Positions 11,674 to 25,240 of a DNA stretch of 27,558 nt are shown piece after piece. The notes beneath the pieces are model-generated. The model was given only the letters and a program-made list of their open reading frames with translations. It did not search any database and had not been told where the DNA came from. The first letter of the stretch is position 1; each line of letters begins with the position of its first letter. The stretch is from the UHGV virus genome UHGV-1805288; one strand, written 5' to 3'. A program made the translations under genes and the position numbers. This DNA is from a virus.

Positions 11674-11840
11674 TAATAAATCAACACTCTCTCACAATTG
11701 TAAAGAAGGCCGCATTGTTCATTAACATAATCACAAAGAACCTTTTGAGGATTACTTGCAGCTCTCTTGCCAGCCATCTTCAAAATTTCATTAGCCATCT
11801 TCTCAGGCATCTTATATTCAATACTTCCACACTTTTTCAT
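11673..11840 (-). CDS. small Cys-containing hypothetical protein (55 aa)
   Basis: ATG 11840..11838 with AAAAGGAG upstream. Translation MKKCGSIEYKMPEKMANEILKMAGKRAASNPQKVLCDYVNEQCGLLYNCERVLIY. Stop TAA overlaps the primase ATG (TAATG). Confidence 0.45.
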   Translation of the reverse strand: MKKCGSIEYKMPEKMANEILKMAGKRAASNPQKVLCDYVNEQCGLLYNCERVLIY

Positions 11841-11862
11841 AATTTATCTCCTTTTTATCAAG

Positions 11863-12135
11863 TTAAAAAGCGCTTTCTTCTTCTTGTAATCTAATTTTTA
11901 CATCATCAATTGGAACTAATTCGTATTGATAAGTAGTACAAAACAATGGTTTAATACGACAAGTGCCCAAATCTGCAGAACACCATAAATAAATACCTTT
12001 ATAACGTCCACGTCTATTTTTATAAACTGACATTTTAAGGTTTGGAGTAGCAAATACATTGGTATTTAATACTTTGTCTAATTTAACTAAATCATTATCA
12101 GTTACATTTAATAGAATTGCGCCATAATCTACTTT
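11863..12135 (-). CDS. dnaB: replicative DNA helicase DnaB-like, exon 2 (C-terminal 90 aa)
   Basis: Frame from 12135 reads KVDYGAILLNVTDNDLVKLDKVLNTNVFATPNLKMSVYKNRRGRYKGIYLW...EEESAF then TAA 11863..11865. It matches the DnaB C-terminal region (compare E. coli QDADLIMFIYRDE...IIGKQRNGPIGTVRL). Confidence 0.7.
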   Translation of the reverse strand, partial: KVDYGAILLNVTDNDLVKLDKVLNTNVFATPNLKMSVYKNRRGRYKGIYLWCSADLGTCRIKPLFCTTYQYELVPIDDVKIRLQEEESAF

Positions 12136-13315
12136 CTTTACTACCTTATATCTCTATAAGGAATAGACTATATCTTTACCATGCTTATTAAAATAAGTTT
12201 AGGTAGACCGTACTTCGAGATTAAATCTCTACTCTCCGCCACGAGATAGTCGTTGAACCTTGCTCTGTTCGAGCCTGGGCTGCGCTGGTTGCCTAATTCA
12301 TTTAATTTTTAAAACATTCACGCTTAGGTTTGTTTCATCCTTACGTTGTAGTTTAAATGACTCTAAAGGGTTTCCCGCAATTCTCGGTCTGATAATCACT
12401 TGACGTTTCCATCAAGGACGACTGTTTCCAAAATTTTATATAATTCATATTTTCTATCTAGATGAATTTTACAAGAATCGTATAGTTGTTTTAATATATA
12501 ATAAGGTTTATTAGTACCACCACAGCGAATATAATAACTATTTTTATTATCATTAGCATTACGTTTTTCTAATTTTACCTCCCAATTTAATATACTACAT
12601 ATCCATAATAATAATTCTTGGGTTCCTTGAATACTAATAGTAAAATTATTATATTGAGATGTTTTTGAAATACTTCCATCTCCATCAAAATATCCTAAAA
12701 TGAATGGTAAATAAAATTCTTCAGAAATAATGGGAGGTTTTAGTATTAAACTTTTTCTTGGTACAATTCCTTTATTACTTAAATCATTAGACATTTTTTT
12801 GCTATTAAGAGTTAAGCGAGCCATTGGAGTATTATTAGAATAACCCTCATTTATAATATACGAATTAATTTTAGCATTTGTATTACAAAACTTCTAAAAT
12901 TTTTTTAAATGGGAAATATCTTTCTAATTGATATTAATTATAATTGAAGCATTATGTTCTCTTACATAATTACATCCATCAGCAGCCAAAAATCCTAGCC
13001 AATAAGCTTTTTCAGATGTATCAATTATTTCAAAAATATCATAATTTCCATTATATTTCTATGTGCGTTCTCGTAAAATAATATTTTCTTTATTTTCATC
13101 TAAAATACGTTTAATAGTTTTACGAGAAACCTAATAATAATCTCCAAGTTTTTGCTATGTCCAATTATTATTATATTTAGTTAATATATCATTAATTTGT
13201 TCTTGTGAAAATTCAATTTTTCTCATAGTTATCGCTCCTGTAATAGATTAAGGGATTATCCTCTAATCTATTTAAAAAACGATATAAATGAATTATAAAA
13301 TTTTGTCCAATCAGC
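12136..13315 (-). mobile_element. group I intron in dnaB, carrying a LAGLIDADG homing endonuclease ORF
   Basis: P-like AAUUGCGGGAAACCC (rc of 12368..12382). R-like CAACGACUAUCUCG (rc of 12242..12255) pairs with S-like AAGAUAUAGUC (rc of 12166..12176) as P7 GACUAU/AUAGUC. P9 hairpin CCUUAUA-GAGA-UAUAAGG (12144..12161). Candidate omega-G at 12136. Junction placed where exon 1 ...LRGAKSI joins exon 2 KVDYGAILL... to recreate the DnaB LRxSGSIEQDADL region. The 5' splice site is the least certain part (P1 lacks a U-G pair); boundaries could shift a few nt. Confidence 0.65.
12396..13226 (-). CDS. intron-encoded LAGLIDADG homing endonuclease (two motifs)
   Basis: ATG 13226..13224 with AGGAG upstream. 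Translation contains KAYWLGFLAADGCNYV and LPFILGYFDGDGSISK. Five in-frame TAG (13155, 13131, 13059, 12924, 12894); stop TGA 12396..12398. Track ORF 12396..12824 is its C-terminal piece. Confidence 0.85.
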
Positions 13316-14569
13316 AATAGATTTCGCTCCTCGCAATAAATTCTGGTCTGGAGTTTCTGAATCGACATATCCACCATTAAGCTGCGTTGCTGACATAATA
13401 AATATACCATATTGATTACATAAGTCTTTTAATTTTACAGATAACATAAATAGAATATTATCTTCACGGAGTTTAACTCCACCACTACGACGAGTAATTT
13501 CTTCAAGAATTTTCATACTTGTTTGAATATAATCAAAGAAAATATACTTTACATCATGGTCACGTAGAGCTTTTTTAATTTCATTCTCTACGTCCTATAA
13601 TGAAAAATCTGGTAGCTCTCGTAAATATAGAGGACTGTCTTTAATAATTTCCGCGGCCTTGTGAATACGTTCTTCTTCATCACCCTCATAAGTATTATTA
13701 AGAATATGTTCTTCATTTACATTAGCAAGAAACGCAAGCATCATAGTTTGCACTTCACTCTTATCTTGCTCTGTGGCGATAAATAAAACCGGTTCACTCA
13801 AACCATTATGAATCCATCCAAATGTTTCATCATAAATTTTATTACAAGCAATATAGCATGCATCTGCAACCATAGAACGAGTCTTACCAGTACCAGTAGC
13901 TGCGGACCGCAAATAAAATTTCTTTAATCGCGCACCACGAGTAATTGTATTTACCAATGGCCCATATAATGGACTTCCTGCTTCTGGATGTTCTTTAAGA
14001 TTATCTAATAGATCAAAGATTCCATCACCCGCTTGAATGGCCGCACCATCTACATTTTTTACATATTCATACTTAACTTCTTCAATTCTATCATCTACTA
14101 ATTGCGCTAAATGTTCTAATGAAGAGTTATCAAGATTATCTTCTTGCTTTTGTTTTTTTTCTACATCAAGAATATTATCAGGGTCATAAATAAATGATAC
14201 GTCAATACCATATTTATCATAAGCCCGTAACAATGACATTTTTTTCAAACGATTATAATAATAATCAAATGATAATAATTTAGCATTTTCAGAAACTTTC
14301 ATTAACCATTCTTCGCCTTTATTAGCATTAAAAATGCCTTCATATTTAGGGCGAGTAGATAAAAAATCAAGAATATTTTCTAATGAAACTTTCTCAGCGC
14401 CCAATTCATGAAGTTTATAAATAGCGCCAAAAACAATACGATGAAAATCATCATTAAAATCTTCATCAGTAATTACATATTTATCTGTATAATCCAATAG
14501 CTGGGGTGTGTTATATACACACCCTATAACTTGGGTGACAGCGGTAGAATCTACATATTTACTTCCCAT
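13316..14569 (-). CDS. dnaB: replicative DNA helicase DnaB-like, exon 1
   Basis: Track ORFs 13595..14593 and 13268..13516 share a frame, joined through TAG 13595..13597. Walker A LRSAATGTGKTRSMVADACYIA; H2-like KYIFFDYIQTS; ATQLNGG...NLLRGAKSI. Start most likely the ATG at 14569 (MGSKYVD...) with GAGGAGG 9 nt upstream. Exon 1 + exon 2 = 1527 nt = 509 codons. Confidence 0.8.
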
Positions 14570-15134
14570 CCGCGGGCGCCTCCTCTTCATCAAGGAATGA
14601 AAATAATTTTCTGCGATATGGTTGTCGCTTTGGTAGAGGAATAACTATTTCTATTACTTTTGGAACGTATTGTTGAATTTCTTTATCTTCATTTACTTGA
14701 TGAGCTAACCATAAATCGTAATAATAATTATAACTATCTTTATAAATATAGGGCACAATACCAATTCCGCCATTAGATTTTTCGATAGAATTGCCTTTTA
14801 CTTCATAAAAATATTTTAATGCTTTTAAAATACCAGAATAAGTATATTTATATTCATTAACATATTGATTAATCTATTTGCGAATCCGCGGATTAAGATA
14901 TTCCACTTGAAATAATTTCATAATATATTTTTCTAATTTCTTTTTATCTTCTTCTTCCTATTGAGCTTGTTCAATAGATTTTTTTTCAGCGGCGAGTTTT
15001 TCTAAATATTCTGGCTAATATTCAGGATGTTCACAATTGGTATGTGCATATCTATTACTACGAGGTTTAATATATTGATAAACTTCAGTATCAAATGTTT
15101 GCTAACAATAAAGACATTTTACATTGTGTGCTAT
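14559..15134 (-). CDS. hypothetical protein with N-terminal C2HC zinc-finger-like motif, just upstream of and overlapping dnaB (position suggests a helicase accessory role); start codon unresolved
   Basis: Frame open from TAA at 15138..15140 to TAA at 14559..14561 apart from 5 in-frame TAG. Translation (I)AHNVKCLYC-TAG-QTFDTEVYQYIKPRSNRYAHTNCEHPEY...YIYKDSYNYYYDLW...EEAPADGK. No in-frame ATG/GTG/TTG lies between the upstream stop and the first Cys; ATA at 15134..15132 sits 7 nt after AAAGGAGGAA. Track ORF 14559..14756 is its C-terminus. Confidence 0.5.
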
Positions 15135-19705: not shown

Positions 19706-19734
19706 ATTATATCACAAATTTTTTATTTTGTCAA
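19706..19734 (-). promoter_or_regulatory. sigma70-type promoter, perfect TTGACA-N17-TATAAT (TG-extended -10)
   Basis: Plus strand attata 19706..19711 and tgtcaa 19729..19734, 17-nt spacer; the -35 overlaps the ligase stop codon. Confidence 0.6.
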
Positions 19735-20855
19735 AAAAGATCGGTTAAACGACAATCTTTGACATCTTTATCATCACGGAAACCCTTAAAAAAGGCATGA
19801 CGCAAAGTATGGTCATCCTTGTTTTTTTCCATACACTGAATAGCAACAACACGATTTAAATATTTTTCTGGATGCTTAGCAAAATCTGCTTTTAATTCAT
19901 CTGTAAGACCTGATGATACTGTTCCAATTTCTATAATTTTATTATTATCATCATAAGCACCAAGTCGAATAGATGTTTTCCATCCATAAAAATAAGGTTT
20001 AGTAACAGGTTCCATTGGAGTTTTAATCATTACACATCCAGCATCATTTAAATATCTACCATGGTAAAGATCACCACTCATAGTTTCAATCCAATATTCC
20101 CAAGTATTTAATTCTTTGCCATTATATTGTTTTGTAGCATCTTCAAACCCGATACAAATACAATCCAAAAAATCCATTTTCTTTACTTTAATTGAAGACC
20201 AAGCAGGTCGTTTATCAGGAGCATACACAGCATCTCGTTTTTTTAAAACAACACCCTCTTCACCCGCATTGAGAGCAGCTGCTGTAAACTCTTGAATATC
20301 ATCTTCTACGCTTTTGGCCAATTCTAAATAATTATATTGTTGTAAATTAAACTTATTCCAAATTTTTGTAAGAATTTGATATCTAACCCATGCACCTTCA
20401 TTTTGTAAATCTACACCATTATATTTAATAACATCATGTAGATAAAAATGAATTAAACCGCTTGTTTGCTGTCTAGTAATAGCTTCATCACTCAGACAGC
20501 CCATAATTTTTGTCACATCTTTTGAAGTTTTTCTAGGATAATAAATTTCACCAATCAAGATAGTGCCTGCTGGTAATTCGGTAAATGCTTCTTTAATATG
20601 AGGAACATTTGCTAATTTTTCAGTAAGAATACCAGTTGTTTTACTTACATTGCGACTAAATAAATAATCATAATGTTCAGTTTTTTCATACTGATACCAA
20701 TATCCATCCTTTTTTAATTCAGCAAAATATTTGCCACTATTACATACAGATGGAAACATATTTTCTTTACCATCAGGCAATTTCCAAATTTTCATTGCTT
20801 GGATACACTCCGCTTCAGGAGCATATTTATCAAGTAATTCTTTTGAAAAACTCAT
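19731..20855 (-). CDS. ATP-dependent DNA ligase
   Basis: Track ORF, 374 aa, no in-frame TAG. Motif I AELKKDGYWYQ (KxDG), motif III ILIGEIYY, motif IV EGVVLKK, motif V SIKVKK. ATG 20855 with AGGAAAAG upstream; stop TGA. Confidence 0.85.
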   Translation of the reverse strand: MSFSKELLDKYAPEAECIQAMKIWKLPDGKENMFPSVCNSGKYFAELKKDGYWYQYEKTEHYDYLFSRNVSKTTGILTEKLANVPHIKEAFTELPAGTILIGEIYYPRKTSKDVTKIMGCLSDEAITRQQTSGLIHFYLHDVIKYNGVDLQNEGAWVRYQILTKIWNKFNLQQYNYLELAKSVEDDIQEFTAAALNAGEEGVVLKKRDAVYAPDKRPAWSSIKVKKMDFLDCICIGFEDATKQYNGKELNTWEYWIETMSGDLYHGRYLNDAGCVMIKTPMEPVTKPYFYGWKTSIRLGAYDDNNKIIEIGTVSSGLTDELKADFAKHPEKYLNRVVAIQCMEKNKDDHTLRHAFFKGFRDDKDVKDCRLTDLF

Positions 20856-20881
20856 AATTTCTTTTCCTATCTTTATATATT

Positions 20882-20910
20882 ATTATACAAAAAGTTTTTT
20901 GAAAAGTCAA
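20882..20910 (-). promoter_or_regulatory. sigma70-type promoter (TTGACT-N17-TATAAT) upstream of the ligase
   Basis: Plus strand attata 20882..20887 and agtcaa 20905..20910, 17-nt spacer. Confidence 0.55.
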
Positions 20911-20916
20911 GTGTTA

Positions 20917-20942
20917 GGTGGCGAAGAACTCGCTTCACCACC
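20917..20942 (-). terminator. GC-rich hairpin after gyrA (terminator or RNA-stability element)
   Basis: ggtggcgaag-aactcg-cttcaccacc (10-bp stem) just 3' of the gyrA stop at 20949; no clear U-tract follows, so termination efficiency is unclear. Confidence 0.35.
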
Positions 20943-20948
20943 CTTATA

Positions 20949-23333
20949 TCAAATCTTAGTAATAGATTTTACATTACCAGTATTAATAAGCGCATTACCC
21001 AATCCGCCACGAGTTCCAATAGGAATATCTTTGGCAGAAATACAAATAGTAGTTTTTTCACCAATGATTAAAATATTATCATCATCAGAAATTAAAGTAC
21101 CACCAATAATACGCTTTTCTGTACTATCTACTTTATATACAGAACTACCTTTCCCTCCACGTCTTTGAACAGGATATTCACTAAGAGGGATTTTCTTGCC
21201 GAGTCCGCAATATGAAAATACAGCAAGAGTATCATTTGTATCTCGGATAGGTAAAGCTGCAACTACTTCATCACCTTCTTTAAGGGTAATAGCCTTAACT
21301 CCTGTACTTACACGACTAGCCGAAGACAAATCTTCAGTAGCAATATGAATAGCCATACCATTTTTAGTAAGAATAAGTACATCTTCATTTTTAATCAAAG
21401 ATACTGAAGCTAGACTATCTCCATCACGGAAATGAGTTGCAATAAGTCCACTCTTTTTAGTATTGATATATTCACTGAGCGCAGTCTTTTTAATTAAACC
21501 ATTCTTAGTTATAAACAATACATATTCCGCTTGGGTATCTTTATAAATAGAATACATAGTAGAAGGCTGTTCATCAGCGCTCATTTTAGTCAAAAGTTTA
21601 ATAGATGTTCCAAGAGAAGCATTAGTACCCACAGGAATATTATTTACTAATAACCGATACATTAAACCCTTATTACTAAAAATCATAAGTGAATCAACAG
21701 TATTTGTGCGTAGTACACAAGAAGTAATATCATCTTGTGACTTTACTCCCTTACCATTGCGCTTCTGAGTGCGAAAACTCGTGGTGGGAATACGCTTAAT
21801 GGTGCCACCTTCAGTCATTACAACTACACATTTCTCAGGTTCAACATATACAGTCTCTTTTTCTTCTTTTGGAATTGTATAATTAGTAAGTTTAGTGCGG
21901 CGCTCATCACCATAATTTTTCTTTAATATTTTAATTTGCTCAATTAAAACATTATCTCTATGGTCTTTATCATTAATAATTTTTAAACATTCAGCAACAA
22001 TTTCTTCATTTTTACGTTTTTCATCAACTAATTCATTTTTATCAATACGAGTTAACCTTGATAACTTCATATCAAGAATAGCATTTGCTTGAACTTCATC
22101 AATAGATAAGAAATTAATTAGTTTATTGCGCGCATCATCTTTATTAGCTGATTGTTTAATTAATTCAATTACTTCATTAATTTTATCAATAGCTGCGAGT
22201 AACCCAACTAAAATATGGATACGAGTTTCCGCCTTTTCTTTGTCAAATTTAGTTGCGTTAAGTAATACATTAGTTTGATGGTCAACATAGGCTTTAATAA
22301 GAGTCTTTAATGAACATAATTGCGGAGTGCCATTAATAATGAAATTCATATTATAAGAGAGAGTAGTTTGTAAATCAGTAAGCTTAAAAATAGTTTCAAG
22401 CGCAGAATTTACATCTATACCTTTTTTAATGGTGAATACAAGTTTATTATTACCAATACTACTTTCATCATCAAAATCTTCAATAAATTTTTCTAAAATT
22501 TCAATATTTTTATTGATATCTTCCTTAATCTTATTGCGATAAGTACGATAAGGAATGGAAGTAAATGTAATTACTCGATCCTTAATTTCATAATCACCGC
22601 GCACTTTAAGAGAAATTGCTGATTTACCCGTATCATAAGCCACATAAATATCTTTTTGATTAATAATTATGCCGCCCAGAGGAAAATCAGGGCCAAGAAT
22701 ATATTTCATTAACTCTTGGGTATTAATTTCACCATTAGCTTGAATATAAGCAATAATACCATCACAAACTTCAGAAAGATTGGCGGGTAAACTATTATGG
22801 CTCATAGAAATACCAATAGCTTCTCTACCATTTACAAGAGCATTAGGAAATAATGCTGGAAGAATGATTGGCTCCATAAATTCACCATTATAAGTTTCTT
22901 TCATAGGAACAACATTCTTTTTAAATGAATTAAACATTAAGTCCGCATACTTACTAGGCTTAGCCTCTGTATAGCGGCTTGATGCAACCATTGAGTTATC
23001 TTCTTGGGTCCCCAAAGCACCTTGACCTTGAATAAGAGGATAGCGCATTAAATAATCTTGTGCCATCTTATAAAGAACACCATAACAACTAGCATCACCA
23101 TGGAAATAACTAGTCATAAGAGTAGAGCCAACTAAACTGTTACATTTCTTAGTTTTACTTTTATTAGTCATTTTAAGATAGTCTTCCATTGTCCAAAGAA
23201 TTTTGCGCTGAGCACTTAGAAGACCATCTTCTGCGTTAGGAATTGCGCGATCAGTAAGCACTTCCTCAGCATAGGTAAGGAAATTGTCTTTAGCTTCATC
23301 TAAAATATCAACTTCTGTAATATAATTTTCCAT
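20949..23333 (-). CDS. gyrA: type IIA topoisomerase subunit A (GyrA/ParC-like)
   Basis: Track ORF, 794 aa, no in-frame TAG. QRKILWTMED...YFHGDASCYGVLYKMAQDYLMRYPLIQGQGALGT...SSRYTEAK contains the active-site Tyr region. ATG 23333 with AAGGAG upstream. Confidence 0.9.
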   Translation of the reverse strand: MENYITEVDILDEAKDNFLTYAEEVLTDRAIPNAEDGLLSAQRKILWTMEDYLKMTNKSKTKKCNSLVGSTLMTSYFHGDASCYGVLYKMAQDYLMRYPLIQGQGALGTQEDNSMVASSRYTEAKPSKYADLMFNSFKKNVVPMKETYNGEFMEPIILPALFPNALVNGREAIGISMSHNSLPANLSEVCDGIIAYIQANGEINTQELMKYILGPDFPLGGIIINQKDIYVAYDTGKSAISLKVRGDYEIKDRVITFTSIPYRTYRNKIKEDINKNIEILEKFIEDFDDESSIGNNKLVFTIKKGIDVNSALETIFKLTDLQTTLSYNMNFIINGTPQLCSLKTLIKAYVDHQTNVLLNATKFDKEKAETRIHILVGLLAAIDKINEVIELIKQSANKDDARNKLINFLSIDEVQANAILDMKLSRLTRIDKNELVDEKRKNEEIVAECLKIINDKDHRDNVLIEQIKILKKNYGDERRTKLTNYTIPKEEKETVYVEPEKCVVVMTEGGTIKRIPTTSFRTQKRNGKGVKSQDDITSCVLRTNTVDSLMIFSNKGLMYRLLVNNIPVGTNASLGTSIKLLTKMSADEQPSTMYSIYKDTQAEYVLFITKNGLIKKTALSEYINTKKSGLIATHFRDGDSLASVSLIKNEDVLILTKNGMAIHIATEDLSSASRVSTGVKAITLKEGDEVVAALPIRDTNDTLAVFSYCGLGKKIPLSEYPVQRRGGKGSSVYKVDSTEKRIIGGTLISDDDNILIIGEKTTICISAKDIPIGTRGGLGNALINTGNVKSITKI

Positions 23334-23344
23334 TAATAATCTCC

Positions 23345-25240
23345 TTACACAAAATTAAAACCAAGGGTTGTAGCATTTTCATAAATATACTGCTTACGAG
23401 GATTCACATTAGGCCCTTCAAGAATATCAAGAAGTTTAACTGTAGCCTCAGCATCACTAACAGTTAAGCGCTTATAACGCTGATTATCAAAACAAATCTC
23501 CTTGAGGGTGGCCGCATTCAGCTCACCGAGACCTTTCGCACGCAAGAGGTCATAAGAACCTGTATGACTAGCTTTCCAATCGTCAAGTTCCTTTTCACTA
23601 TAACAAAAATATTCTTTGTCTTTTTGTTTGATAATATACAGCGGAGTTATAGCTCGATATAATTTACCTGCTTCGACAAGGGGTCTCATATAAGTATAAA
23701 AGAAGGTAATTAATAGTAACTCAATAGCCGCGCCATCTGAATCTTGATCTGAAGTAATAATAATTTTATCAAAATTCATCTTATTGACATCAAAATTATT
23801 ACCAAATCCAGCGCCAATTACTCGAATAATATCACTAATCTCCTGATTAGCTAAAAGTTTTTCAAGAGATTGTTTTAGAGGACTAATAATTTTACCTCTT
23901 AAAAGGTAAATACAATCAGTCTTTACATTACGAGCTTCAACCGCTGAAGTAGCTGCTGACTTGCCCTCAACTAGAAGTAAATTGCGTTGAGAAGGGTCTT
24001 TATTAACACAATCAAAAAATTTATCACTAATAGCCATTTTAGCCTTTAAACCTTTTTCTTTAGGCTGACGAACAGCTTCCTTAGCCTTTTTAGCTTTCTC
24101 GCGTGCGGTTCGTGCTAATAAAGCTTTATCAATGATTGCTTTCGCATCTTTTGGGTTACTATTTAACCAGACTTTTAAATCTTTAGAAACCAATCTTTGA
24201 ACAGCGGTTCTAGCTTCACTACTGGATAAAACATCCTTAGTCTGACCTGAAAATACTGGATCAGGCATAATAAATGAAAGGACGAGACTTAAACCTTCTT
24301 TAAGCTCTTCACCAGTAATATTACTATCTTTATCTTTCAAAAGTTTATTATCTCGCGCGTATTCATTAATCGATTGAGTAAGTGCGGTGCGGAAACCAGT
24401 TAAATGAGTCCCACCACTATTGGGAATTGAATTTGTATAGAGTTTATAATTATCATTATAACTCTCATTATATAACATAGCAATTTTAACACCAATTCTA
24501 TCTTCCATATTTTCAGTATAAAAAATTGATGTTAATTTCTTTTTATTCTTATTAATATCTTCAATATAATCAAGGATACCATGTTGAGAAGTAATTACTT
24601 CTTCGGGTTTATCCTTGTATTTAAATTTAAATGTAAGACCAGGAGAGAGATAAGCTAACTCTTGAATTTGATTTCTAAGAGAAGTGTAATCAAGCTCAAT
24701 AGTTTCTTTAAAAATTTCAGCATCTGGTAAAAACTTTACCCAAGTACCAGTTTCTTTTCCAGCCCATTTTTCTTCTTTATAATCAATAAGTTTACCACGA
24801 ACGAATGAAGCAACTGCGTGTTTACCATCACGAAATGATACAACTTGAAAATGTTCAGATAAGGCATTAGTAGCTTTCGCACCAACACCATTCATACCAC
24901 CTGAAGTATTATAACCAGTTTTACCATTGCTATCAAACTTAGCACCAGTATGAAGCTTAGTATAAATATTTACAAGTGTTTCACTACCATCTTTCGCTTT
25001 GCCAAATGGCACACCACGTCCATTATCACGAATTTCAACATTATTATCTTTATCAATTATAATATCGCATTCAGTGCAATGACCATTTAAATATTCATCT
25101 ACACAATTTGAAATAATTTCAAGCGTAATATGTTTGATACCATCCGCGCCAATCGAGCCGATATACATACCAGGTCTGAGTCGAATCGCGTCAATACCCT
25201 CAAGAGTTTTTATTGATTTTACACCATAATCTTCTGACAA
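23345..25240 (-). CDS. gyrB: type IIA topoisomerase subunit B (GyrB/ParE-like)
   Basis: Track ORF, 631 aa, no in-frame TAG. GHKL ATPase motifs (LEGIDAIRLRPGMYIGS, NGRGVP, GGMNGVGAKA) and TOPRIM (LLLVEGKSAA, DQDSDGAAI). TTG start at 25240 with GGAGGAGG upstream. Confidence 0.9.
   Translation of the reverse strand: MSEDYGVKSIKTLEGIDAIRLRPGMYIGSIGADGIKHITLEIISNCVDEYLNGHCTECDIIIDKDNNVEIRDNGRGVPFGKAKDGSETLVNIYTKLHTGAKFDSNGKTGYNTSGGMNGVGAKATNALSEHFQVVSFRDGKHAVASFVRGKLIDYKEEKWAGKETGTWVKFLPDAEIFKETIELDYTSLRNQIQELAYLSPGLTFKFKYKDKPEEVITSQHGILDYIEDINKNKKKLTSIFYTENMEDRIGVKIAMLYNESYNDNYKLYTNSIPNSGGTHLTGFRTALTQSINEYARDNKLLKDKDSNITGEELKEGLSLVLSFIMPDPVFSGQTKDVLSSSEARTAVQRLVSKDLKVWLNSNPKDAKAIIDKALLARTAREKAKKAKEAVRQPKEKGLKAKMAISDKFFDCVNKDPSQRNLLLVEGKSAATSAVEARNVKTDCIYLLRGKIISPLKQSLEKLLANQEISDIIRVIGAGFGNNFDVNKMNFDKIIITSDQDSDGAAIELLLITFFYTYMRPLVEAGKLYRAITPLYIIKQKDKEYFCYSEKELDDWKASHTGSYDLLRAKGLGELNAATLKEICFDNQRYKRLTVSDAEATVKLLDILEGPNVNPRKQYIYENATTLGFNFV

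What the first reader, a model, noticed from the sequence alone, without database searches (positions are those of the whole stretch)
12136..13315. Second group I intron, carrying a two-motif LAGLIDADG endonuclease, splits dnaB
The DnaB-like helicase stops matching after ...NLLRGAKSI and resumes about 1.18 kb downstream with KVDYGAILLNV... The intervening DNA encodes a TAG-recoded LAGLIDADG ORF and, after it, P-like (AAUUGCGGGAAACCC), R-like (GACUAUCUCG), S-like (AAGAUAUAGUC) elements and a P9 hairpin almost identical in shape to the dnaE intron's P9. Two replication genes within 12 kb thus carry introns with different homing-endonuclease families. Near the 5' end the octamer AAUCUAUU occurs at the exon end (13316..13323) and again inside the intron (13242..13249), with its complement between them (13265..13272), so P1 has an alternative pairing and no obvious U-G; the 5' junction is my least certain call.
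Basis: partly seen in the sequence, partly recalled or inferred. Interest (0 to 1): 0.75.

Follow-up and report, generated by a model that had tools for sequence, protein, structure and literature searches.

The report
Self-splicing intron in phage helicase gene
The phage's DnaB-type replication helicase gene is interrupted by a self-splicing group I intron carrying its own DNA-cutting "homing" enzyme.

Summary
The finding is essentially right. A group I intron of subgroup IA, 1,174 nt long, sits on the minus strand at 13309..12136. It splits a DnaB-like helicase gene at ...LRGAKSIAD|KVDYG....

- **Family match:** Rfam RF00028 scores 59.9 bits against a gathering score of 50, but only when a short stretch is scanned.
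- **Relatives:** Homologous introns lie at exactly this codon boundary in IMG/VR phage contigs, six sequence types beyond the window. Some have the endonuclease ORF and some lack it. 58 of 72 related dnaB genes are uninterrupted there.
- **Structure:** A seven-sequence alignment supports P1 to P9 including P7.1 and P7.2. 98.7% of cells are paired and 32 of 80 pairs show compensatory changes.
The 5' splice site follows U13310, not 13316. Homologs require the two residues "AD". A canonical U·G pair exists with a guide sequence at 12424..12420, which lies downstream of the ORF.
- **ORF position:** The ORF lies in the loop of a 12-bp extension of P1.
- **The repeated octamer:** Its two intron copies form a conserved hairpin upstream of the endonuclease start. 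The exon copy is specific to this window and looks fortuitous.
- **Endonuclease:** 276 aa, an N-terminal helix-turn-helix region plus two LAGLIDADG motifs, five in-frame TAG codons. It is homologous to the intron-encoded I-MsaII of Staphylococcus Kayvirus phages.

Verdict: a new member of a known kind, of modest interest.

The parts
13310..14590 (-). dnaB exon 1: 427 codons from ATG 14590 (a TTG at 14593 is also possible), ending ...AAA TCT ATT GCT GAT. One in-frame TAG at codon 332.
   Evidence: Translation. Pfam DnaB N-terminal and DnaB_C domains. Alignment to phage DnaB/YorI homologs. The TAG position aligns mostly with Q (32) or K (26) in relatives.
12136..13309 (-). Group I intron, subgroup IA, 1,174 nt. 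It begins UGGACAAAAUUUU and ends GGUAGUAAAG, with the terminal G at 12136.
   Evidence: Rfam RF00028 at 59.9 bits. Junctions fixed by intron-free homologs and by homologous introns at the same site.
11863..12135 (-). dnaB exon 2: 90 codons plus stop, starting AAA GTA GAT TAT GGC.
   Evidence: Translation; alignment A1.
13308..13312 (-). P1 5' strand, GAU|UG, spanning the 5' splice site. U13310 is the last exon base.
   Evidence: RNAalifold and pair counts give G-C, A-U, U·G, U-A, G-C. The U·G pair is invariant in 7 of 7 sequences. The single-sequence fold agrees.
12420..12424 (-). Internal guide sequence CAGUC (P1 3' strand). G12422 pairs with U13310. It lies 885 nt downstream of the 5' splice site, after the ORF body.
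13294..13305 (-). P1-extension stem, 5' strand: CAAAAUUUUAUA.
   Evidence: Perfect 12-nt complement of 12440..12429 (I12). The equivalent stems covary: L053 CAAAG/CUUUG, L079 CAAAUUUUGAUAA/UUAUCAAAAUUUG, L081 GGUCUUAUG/CAUAAGAUU, L082 UGUCGC/GCGACA.
12429..12440 (-). P1-extension stem, 3' strand: UAUAAAAUUUUG. It lies inside the last codons of the endonuclease ORF.
13241..13273 (-). Hairpin AAAUAGAUUAGAGGAUAAUCCCUUAAUCUAUUA just upstream of the endonuclease ribosome-binding site (GGAG at 13238..13235).
   Evidence: Inverted repeat I1. A comparable UAGAUU...AAUCUA hairpin occurs at the same place in L077, L079 and L063.
12396..13226 (-). Homing-endonuclease ORF: 276 codons plus TGA, five in-frame TAG codons, an N-terminal helix-turn-helix-like region and two LAGLIDADG motifs. 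The last ~15 codons overlap the P1-extension 3' strand, the guide sequence and P2, and the stop codon lies within the 3' strand of P2.
   Evidence: Pfam LAGLIDADG_3 at 1e-10. PDB 2dch, a putative homing endonuclease, at E 2e-5. Homologs include the intron-encoded I-MsaII of Staphylococcus phage MSA6. Alignment of the ORFs.
12395..12419 (-). P2 hairpin GUCCUUGAUG-GAAA-CGUCAAGUGAU.
   Evidence: 10 pairs, 6 of them with compensatory changes.
12144..12389 (-). Catalytic core.
- P3 12389..12385 / 12210..12206
- P4 12379..12374 / 12288..12281
- P5 and P5a-b 12369..12343 / 12323..12292
- P6 and P6a 12279..12258
- P7 12251..12246 / 12171..12166
- P7.1 12245..12234
- P7.2 12229..12217
- P8 12205..12177
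- P9 12161..12144
   Evidence: Rfam alignment. Manual structure counted on A2 gives 98.7% of cells paired, against 32-42% when partners are slid, and 32 of 80 pairs compensatory. Coordinates.

Best explanation
This is a mobile, self-splicing group I intron of subgroup IA, inserted in the DnaB-type replicative helicase gene of a TAG-recoded phage. It sits between the codons for D427 and K428, inside the conserved LRGxKxIADKxD motif.

**Splicing (inferred from the structure)**
- The dnaB pre-mRNA is transcribed through the intron.
- The 12-bp P1-extension stem brings the 5' splice site next to the guide sequence CAGUC, which lies about 885 nt downstream.
- P1 forms with the U13310·G12422 wobble pair.
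- The P3-P9 core binds guanosine at P7.
- Two transesterifications then join ...GCUGAU to AAAGUAGAU..., restoring the helicase reading frame, with G12136 as the intron's last base.

**Mobility (inferred)**
- The loop of the P1 extension carries a gene for a monomeric two-motif LAGLIDADG endonuclease with an N-terminal DNA-binding region.
- Translation of this gene needs read-through of five TAG codons.
- During mixed infection the enzyme would cut intron-free dnaB alleles near GCTGAT|AAGATTGA, and repair would copy the intron in (homing).

**Shown versus inferred**
- Shown: the sequence features, the homology, the covariation, and the presence/absence polymorphism at one site.
- Inferred: splicing activity, endonuclease activity and its target, and the meaning of TAG.
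For: **The ribozyme**
- RF00028 hits in the window (59.9 bits) and in the ORF-less homolog L053 (61.7 bits), both above the gathering score of 50.
- The structure has 80 pairs with 98.7% of cells paired. 32 pairs carry compensatory changes, 0 of 500 shuffles reach the observed score, and slid controls give 32-42% paired.
- RNAalifold independently predicts P1, the P1 extension, P2, P3, P5a, P6a, P7.1, P7.2, P8 and P9.
- The single-sequence fold of the window reproduces the same helices, with z = -2.5.

**The host gene and junctions**
- After splicing the protein is a full DnaB (Pfam DnaB and DnaB_C). It aligns without a gap to Enterococcus phage and SPbeta YorI helicases only when AD is retained.
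- 58 of 72 IMG/VR relatives have an uninterrupted RGAKSIADKID site.

**Mobility signature**
- The core pattern scan returned 9 IMG/VR loci, all at this same dnaB site. Two of them come from the contigs of L053 and L063, already found by the protein search. In all there are 9 distinct intron-bearing contigs besides the window, giving six sequence types.
- Two ORF-containing/ORF-less pairs have cores 97.8% and 98.3% identical. This is the gain-and-loss pattern expected of a homing element.

**The endonuclease**
- Pfam LAGLIDADG_3 above its cut-off.
- Homologous to annotated intron-encoded endonucleases in Staphylococcus Kayvirus rec genes.
Against: - No experiment: splicing and cleavage are inferred.
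- P1 is short. It has 5 pairs plus the extension, and only 3 exon bases pair in alleles with a GCA alanine codon.
- I could not identify a convincing P10.
- P3, P4 and P7 are invariant in the seven sequences, so they carry no covariation evidence of their own.
- Rfam scans of the whole window miss the intron. I attribute this to the speed filters.
- No suppressor tRNA lies in the window, so read-through of the five TAG codons rests on the window-wide TAG pattern.
Confidence: 0.9

Rival explanations
1. The ribozyme is decayed. dnaB would then be a split or dead gene, with a free-standing endonuclease gene lodged between two helicase fragments, and no splicing.
For: No direct splicing data. P1 is short and P10 was not identified. 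Whole-window Rfam scans give no hit.
Against: - All defining elements are intact: the U·G pair, the guide sequence, P7, and the terminal G.
- They are maintained by compensatory changes across homologs whose cores are only 53-82% identical to the window's.
- The exons keep an intact, conserved helicase frame.
- No other dnaB is seen in the window.
Confidence: 0.05
2. The insertion is an intein, or another element removed at the protein level, rather than an intron.
For: DnaB helicases are classic intein hosts (general knowledge). Relatives carry an in-frame insertion of about 1.07 kb at residue ~236.
Against: - The insertion is 1,174 nt, which is not a multiple of three.
- Exon 2 is in a different frame from exon 1.
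- The exon-1 frame meets TAG and then TAA within 20 codons of the junction.
- ORF-less versions are only 309-317 nt long and match RF00028.
- Pfam found no Hint domain.
Confidence: 0.01
3. One reading: the 5' splice site follows U13316, and the exon octamer AAUCUAUU pairs with intron AAUAGAUU (13272..13265) as P1.
For: The 8-bp complementarity is real in this window.
Against: - The spliced protein would lack the AD that is present at this motif in the four GenBank phage homologs aligned and in all 58 continuous IMG/VR sites.
- That pairing has no U·G pair.
- The exon octamer is absent from the other intron-bearing alleles, which use AGT or TCG for serine.
- ORF-less introns lack the AAUAGAUU segment altogether.
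Confidence: 0.02

Closest known systems
Phage subgroup IA group I introns (T4 td/nrdB type; introns of Bacillus, Staphylococcus, Lactococcus and Streptococcus phages)
   Same: - The same core, with P7.1 and P7.2.
- The same conserved strings: AAUUGCGGGAAA, GUUCAACGACUAUC and AAGAUAUAGUC.
- 71-81% nucleotide identity over the P3-P6 segment to unannotated or intron-like regions in Bacillus, Lactococcus, Streptococcus and Staphylococcus phages.
- Insertion in a conserved motif of a DNA-metabolism gene.
   Different: - The host gene is a DnaB-like helicase and the exact site is IAD|K.
- The ORF sits in the loop of an extended P1, so the guide sequence lies about 885 nt from the 5' splice site.
- The host phage uses TAG as a sense codon.
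I-MsaII-type intron-encoded "DOD" (LAGLIDADG) endonucleases in the rec gene of Staphylococcus Kayvirus phages (for example MSA6, JX080304)
   Same: - About 33% identity over 95% of the protein, with the same helix-turn-helix plus double-LAGLIDADG layout.
- Encoded inside an intron of a phage replication or recombination gene.
   Different: A different host gene and target site. The Kayvirus genes use the standard code, whereas this ORF carries five TAG codons.
Recoded intron endonucleases in alternative-code gut phages (Borges et al., bioRxiv 10.1101/2021.08.26.457843; Yutin et al. 2021, PMC7886860)
   Same: An intron-encoded endonuclease ORF carrying reassigned stop codons inside a conserved phage gene. 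The endonuclease has more recoded codons than its host gene: 5 in 276 against 1 in 517.
   Different: - The published examples are TGA-recoded Agate phages and crAss-like PolB, capsid and RNA polymerase genes.
- Here the codon is TAG.
- The phage is related to firmicute-phage (SPbeta and Enterococcus phage) helicases.
- The host gene itself also needs TAG read-through.

Membership tests
Group I intron (Rfam RF00028) | Covariance-model score at or above the curated gathering score | tested here: met
   59.9 bits against 50 for 12441..12144 on the minus strand. L053 homolog 61.7 bits. Missed in whole-window scans.
Group I intron (Rfam RF00028) | P1 formed by the end of the 5' exon and an internal guide sequence, with a U·G pair at the splice site | tested here: met
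   GAU|UG pairs with CAGUC. U13310·G12422 is invariant in 7 of 7 homologs.
Group I intron (Rfam RF00028) | Conserved P3-P9 core including the P3/P7 pseudoknot, supported by covariation | tested here: met
   98.7% of cells paired and 32 of 80 pairs compensatory. P3, P4 and P7 are themselves invariant, so they are consistent but uninformative.
Group I intron (Rfam RF00028) | The intron ends in G | tested here: met
   G12136 precedes exon 2. All seven homologs end in G.
Group I intron (Rfam RF00028) | P10 pairing between the guide sequence and the 3' exon | tested here: inconclusive
   No conserved complement to AAAGUA or AAAAUU was found next to the guide sequence.
Group I intron (Rfam RF00028) | Guanosine-dependent self-splicing | not testable with these tools
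   Needs an in vitro splicing assay or RT-PCR.
Subgroup IA | Extra helices P7.1 and P7.2 between P7 and the 3' strand of P3 | tested here: met
   P7.1 (CUC/GAG, CUG/CAG, CCU/AGG, CCG/CGG) and P7.2 (GAGAU/AUCUC, GCA/UGC, GGAA/UUCC, GC/GC, CCC/GGG) both covary.
LAGLIDADG homing endonuclease (monomeric, two-motif) | Profile match above the curated cut-off, and two LAGLIDADG motifs that keep their acidic residues | tested here: met
   PF14528 at 42.1 bits against 22.5. LGFLAADG and ILGYFDGDG are conserved in all homologs. PDB 2dch at E 2e-5.
LAGLIDADG homing endonuclease (monomeric, two-motif) | Site-specific cleavage of the intron-free allele | not testable with these tools
   Indirect support only: intron-bearing, intron-free and ORF-less alleles all occur at one site.
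DnaB-like replicative helicase (host gene) | DnaB N-terminal and C-terminal domains, continuous after removal of the insert | tested here: met
   PF00772 at 26.5 bits against 23 and PF03796 at 61.3 against 27. 35-42% identity along the full length to phage DnaB/YorI proteins.
Intein | In-frame insertion encoding Hint splicing blocks | tested here: not met
   1,174 nt, a frame change, stop codons in the exon frame, and no Hint domain.
TAG-reassigned (code-15-like) phage | In-frame TAG codons inside conserved domains of essential genes, and a suppressor tRNA | tested here: inconclusive
   TAG lies inside the DnaB_C domain at codon 332, where relatives have Q (32) or K (26). Many window ORFs are intact only if TAG is read as sense. 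No tRNA was found in this 27.5-kb window.

The most novel reading that the evidence does not exclude
The five TAG codons and the overlap of the ORF's 3' end with the guide sequence and P2 could form a code-dependent switch.
- While TAG still terminates, ribosomes would stop at codon 25, far from the guide sequence. The ribozyme could then fold and dnaB would be spliced.
- Once TAG is read through, the endonuclease would be made. Ribosomes running into the P1 3' strand and P2 would then compete with splicing.

This would tie homing-enzyme production and host-gene splicing to the phage's change of genetic code.
Probability: 0.1. Interest if true: 0.6.

Novelty: new member of a known kind. Interest (0 to 1): 0.3.

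Why it matters
**Annotation.** Standard gene callers will report a truncated helicase, stray fragments and a broken endonuclease. The correct product is a 517-aa DnaB joined at D427|K428.

**Intron biology.** This adds a documented dnaB insertion site, with ORF-containing and ORF-less alleles, to the catalogue of phage group I introns. It is also another case of an intron endonuclease that has taken up the phage's reassigned stop codon. It shows a long-range P1, about 885 nt, held together by a covarying stem.

None of this changes current understanding of group I introns or homing.

Tried and rejected
- **Whole-window Rfam scans.** Neither the gathering-threshold scan nor the E-value scan returned anything. 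The intron appears only when about 2 kb is scanned. The negative whole-window result is therefore a filter effect, not evidence of absence.
- **Guide sequence near the 5' end of the intron.** I looked there first, including the AUUAG and AGCGAU candidates. I dropped them once the ORF-less homolog L053 showed that the guide sequence is CAGUCGUC, downstream of the ORF.
- **Alternative splice-junction combinations.** Shifts of ±1 nt, and a terminal G at 12141, give a stop codon, a non-U/non-G boundary, or a protein that disagrees with homologs.
- **Promoter and terminator scan of 11800..14800.** It found 21 promoter-like sites against 19.4 expected and no terminators, so it is uninformative.
- **GenBank phages.** No phage is near-identical to the window.
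- **A custom covariance model.** I did not build one, because A2 has 416 columns and the limit is 400. I used nhmmer instead.
- **dnaE gap.** The Rfam scan of 1500..3200 found no group I match.
- **LOOT motif.** A literature search for it was uninformative.

Full report
**What is in the sequence.** All genes in this part of the window run on the minus strand.
- Reading that strand, a DnaB-like frame runs from about 14590 to ...NLLRGAKSIAD.
- In that frame it then meets TAG and TAA within 20 codons.
- A different frame resumes at 12135 with KVDYGAILLNV... and ends at 11863.
- Between the two pieces lies a 276-codon ORF, 13226..12396, with five in-frame TAG codons and a TGA stop.
- It hits Pfam LAGLIDADG_3 (E 1e-10, 42.1 bits against a cut-off of 22.5). 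It has two motifs, LGFLAADG and ILGYFDGDG, behind a weak helix-turn-helix signal at the N-terminus.

**Is it a group I intron?** Yes, although the scan size matters.
- Rfam scans of the whole 27.5-kb window found nothing, either at the gathering threshold or at E ≤ 0.01.
- A scan of 11800..13700 alone returned RF00028 at 12441..12144 on the minus strand, with 59.9 bits (gathering score 50) and E 3e-14.
- The tool's speed filters are laxer for short inputs, so I treat the whole-window negatives as filter losses.
- The ORF-less homolog L053 scores 61.7 bits.

**Where are the junctions?**
All four read (A/T)AD(K/R)xD at that point.
- Among 72 IMG/VR relatives of the helicase (up to 73% identity), 58 have an uninterrupted RG....AD(K/R).D site. 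An example is GCAAAATCTATTGCTGAT|AAGATTGACTATGG, almost identical to the window's joined exons.
- Shifting both junctions by ±1 nt gives a stop codon, or boundaries that are not U and G.
- The intron is therefore 13309..12136 (1,174 nt). U13310 is the last exon base and G12136 the last intron base.
The 5' junction is 6 nt too early.

**Homologous introns.**
- Two relatives found by protein search, L053 and L063, are interrupted exactly between the codons for D427 and K428.
- A scan of IMG/VR with a conserved core pattern returned 9 loci, all at this same dnaB site. Two of them come from the contigs of L053 and L063.
- In all there are 9 distinct intron-bearing contigs besides the window, giving six sequence types.
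- Some lack the ORF: L053 317 nt, L081 and L083 309 nt, L082 311 nt.
- Others carry it: L063 1,224 nt; L077, L080 and L084 1,160 nt; L079 1,168 nt.
- Two ORF-containing/ORF-less pairs have nearly identical cores: L077/L053 at 97.8% and L079/L082 at 98.3%. The window's core is 77-82% identical to the others, and 53% to L063.
- This mix of intron-free, ORF-less and ORF-containing alleles at one site is the expected signature of a homing element.

**Structure.** The ORF-less versions showed at once where P1 is.
- The exon end and first intron bases, GAU|UG (13312..13308), pair with CAGUC (12424..12420), which lies after the ORF. U13310·G12422 is the wobble pair.
- Next to it, CAAAAUUUUAUA (13305..13294) pairs perfectly with UAUAAAAUUUUG (12440..12429). 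This P1 extension encloses the ORF.
- The extension covaries completely among homologs.
- RNAalifold on a seven-sequence alignment (A2, ORF loops trimmed) independently predicted P1, the P1 extension, P2, P3, P5a, P6a, P7.1, P7.2, P8 and P9.
- I then added P4, P5, P6 and the P7 pseudoknot by hand. This structure has 80 pairs, and 98.7% of cells form standard pairs, against 32-42% when partners are slid by 1-3 columns. 32 pairs carry compensatory changes, and 0 of 500 shuffles reach the observed covariation score.
- P3, P4 and P7 never vary, so they are consistent with the structure but add no evidence.
- The presence of P7.1 and P7.2 places the intron in subgroup IA.
- The window sequence alone, with the ORF loop trimmed, folds into the same helices (-79.3 kcal/mol, z = -2.5).
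- I could not identify a convincing P10.

**The octamer puzzle.**
- The two intron copies, AAUAGAUU at 13272..13265 and AAUCUAUU at 13249..13242, are the arms of a hairpin (13273..13241). It sits just upstream of the endonuclease ribosome-binding site.
- A comparable UAGAUU...AAUCUA hairpin occupies the same place in L077, L079 and L063, so it belongs to the endonuclease cassette. Its function is unknown.
- The exon copy exists because this window uses TCT for serine. The other intron-bearing alleles use AGT or TCG, and ORF-less introns lack the partner altogether.
- The alternative pairing is therefore not conserved and is most likely fortuitous.

**The endonuclease.**
- Its closest annotated relatives are intron-encoded "DOD" endonucleases of Staphylococcus Kayvirus phages. 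One is I-MsaII, encoded inside the split rec gene of phage MSA6 (33% identity over 95% of the length).
- Other relatives are "mobile intron proteins" of Bacillus phages.
- The best solved-structure relative is 2dch, a putative homing endonuclease (E 2e-5).
- The last ~15 codons (...YKILETVVLDGNVK*) are encoded by the P1-extension 3' strand, the guide sequence and P2. The TGA stop lies within the 3' strand of P2.
- The same remnant reading frame and stop persist in ORF-less introns, because these bases are ribozyme elements.

**TAG.**
- Many ORFs in the window stay open only if TAG is read as sense.
- dnaB has one TAG at codon 332, inside the DnaB_C domain, where relatives most often have Q (32) or K (26).
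- In the endonuclease alignment, TAG positions align several times with Q but also with other residues.
- TAG counts in homologous endonuclease ORFs are 5 (window), 5 (L077), 1 (L079) and 0 (L063).
- No tRNA is present in the window.
- TAG as glutamine is likely but not proven.

**Comparison with what is known.**
- Group I introns with homing endonucleases in phage DNA-metabolism genes are long established. The 2014 review PMC3984707 notes that phage introns more often carry GIY-YIG, HNH, PD-(D/E)xK or EDxHD enzymes than LAGLIDADG enzymes. The Kayvirus examples show that LAGLIDADG enzymes do occur.
- Recoded endonuclease ORFs inside introns of alternative-code phages have been described for TGA-recoded Agate phages. 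There the proposal was that in-frame stops delay endonuclease production (10.1101/2021.08.26.457843). They have also been described for crAss-like phages (PMC7886860).
- That timing idea is weaker here, because dnaB itself needs TAG read-through.
- The element is a new member of a known kind. Its dnaB site, the ORF position in the P1 loop and the TAG-bearing LAGLIDADG gene are particulars, not new principles.

**Verdict.** Confidence that this is a group I intron carrying a homing-endonuclease gene is about 0.9. Splicing and homing activity remain inferred.

Noticed in passing
window 306..5463 (minus strand): dnaE is also split. An ORF with PHP, pol III alpha and finger domains (5463..2926) and an ORF with the HHH_6 domain (1730..306) flank a GIY-YIG endonuclease ORF (2730..1912, three TAG codons). 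Strings resembling the P7 strands, and a hairpin CCUUAUAGAAAUAUAAG very like the dnaB intron's P9, lie at about 1900..1790. However, a 1.7-kb Rfam scan found no group I match, and the dnaB-intron nhmmer profile finds nothing there.
   Followed up: partly
window 12144..12441: Rfam scans of the whole 27.5-kb window miss an intron that scores 59.9 bits (above the gathering score) when only 1.9 kb is scanned. Negative whole-window scans of AT-rich phage DNA should not be trusted for group I introns.
   Followed up: yes
window 12126..12205; L053 2477..2556: The Rfam family LOOT (RF03000) gives sub-threshold matches of 28.6 and 37.1 bits (gathering score 46.4). Both lie exactly over the P8, P7 3' strand, P9 and 3' splice-site part of this intron family. 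This suggests LOOT resembles the 3' portion of such introns.
   Followed up: no
L061, L063, L064 (dnaB residue ~236); L053, L055, L056, L058 (residue ~351): Related dnaB genes carry further insertions. One is in-frame, about 1.07 kb, near residue 236 and looks like an intein. Another is out of frame, about 1.03 kb, near residue 351, and gave no Rfam hit. dnaB is a multi-site target for mobile elements in this phage group.
   Followed up: partly
L036 2287..2544; L055, L056, L060 and L064 2249..2570; L057 1949..2270; L063 482..803: Intron cores related to the dnaB intron (nhmmer E 1e-17 to 1e-40) lie in a gene roughly 1.5 kb upstream of dnaB in several relatives.
   Followed up: no
whole window: TAG use is very uneven between genes:
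- none in the three large ORFs at 19731..25240
- 1 in 517 codons in dnaB
- 1 in 845 in the dnaE N-terminal part
- 5 in 276 and 3 in 272 in the two endonucleases
- 12 in 579 in ORF 10000..8261

No tRNA gene is present in the window.
   Followed up: partly
window 13285..13295 and 12294..12304: An 11-nt perfect complement links the intron segment just after the P1-extension 5' strand to the region spanning the 3' strands of P5a and P5. It is not conserved in L079 and is probably chance in AT-rich sequence.
   Followed up: partly
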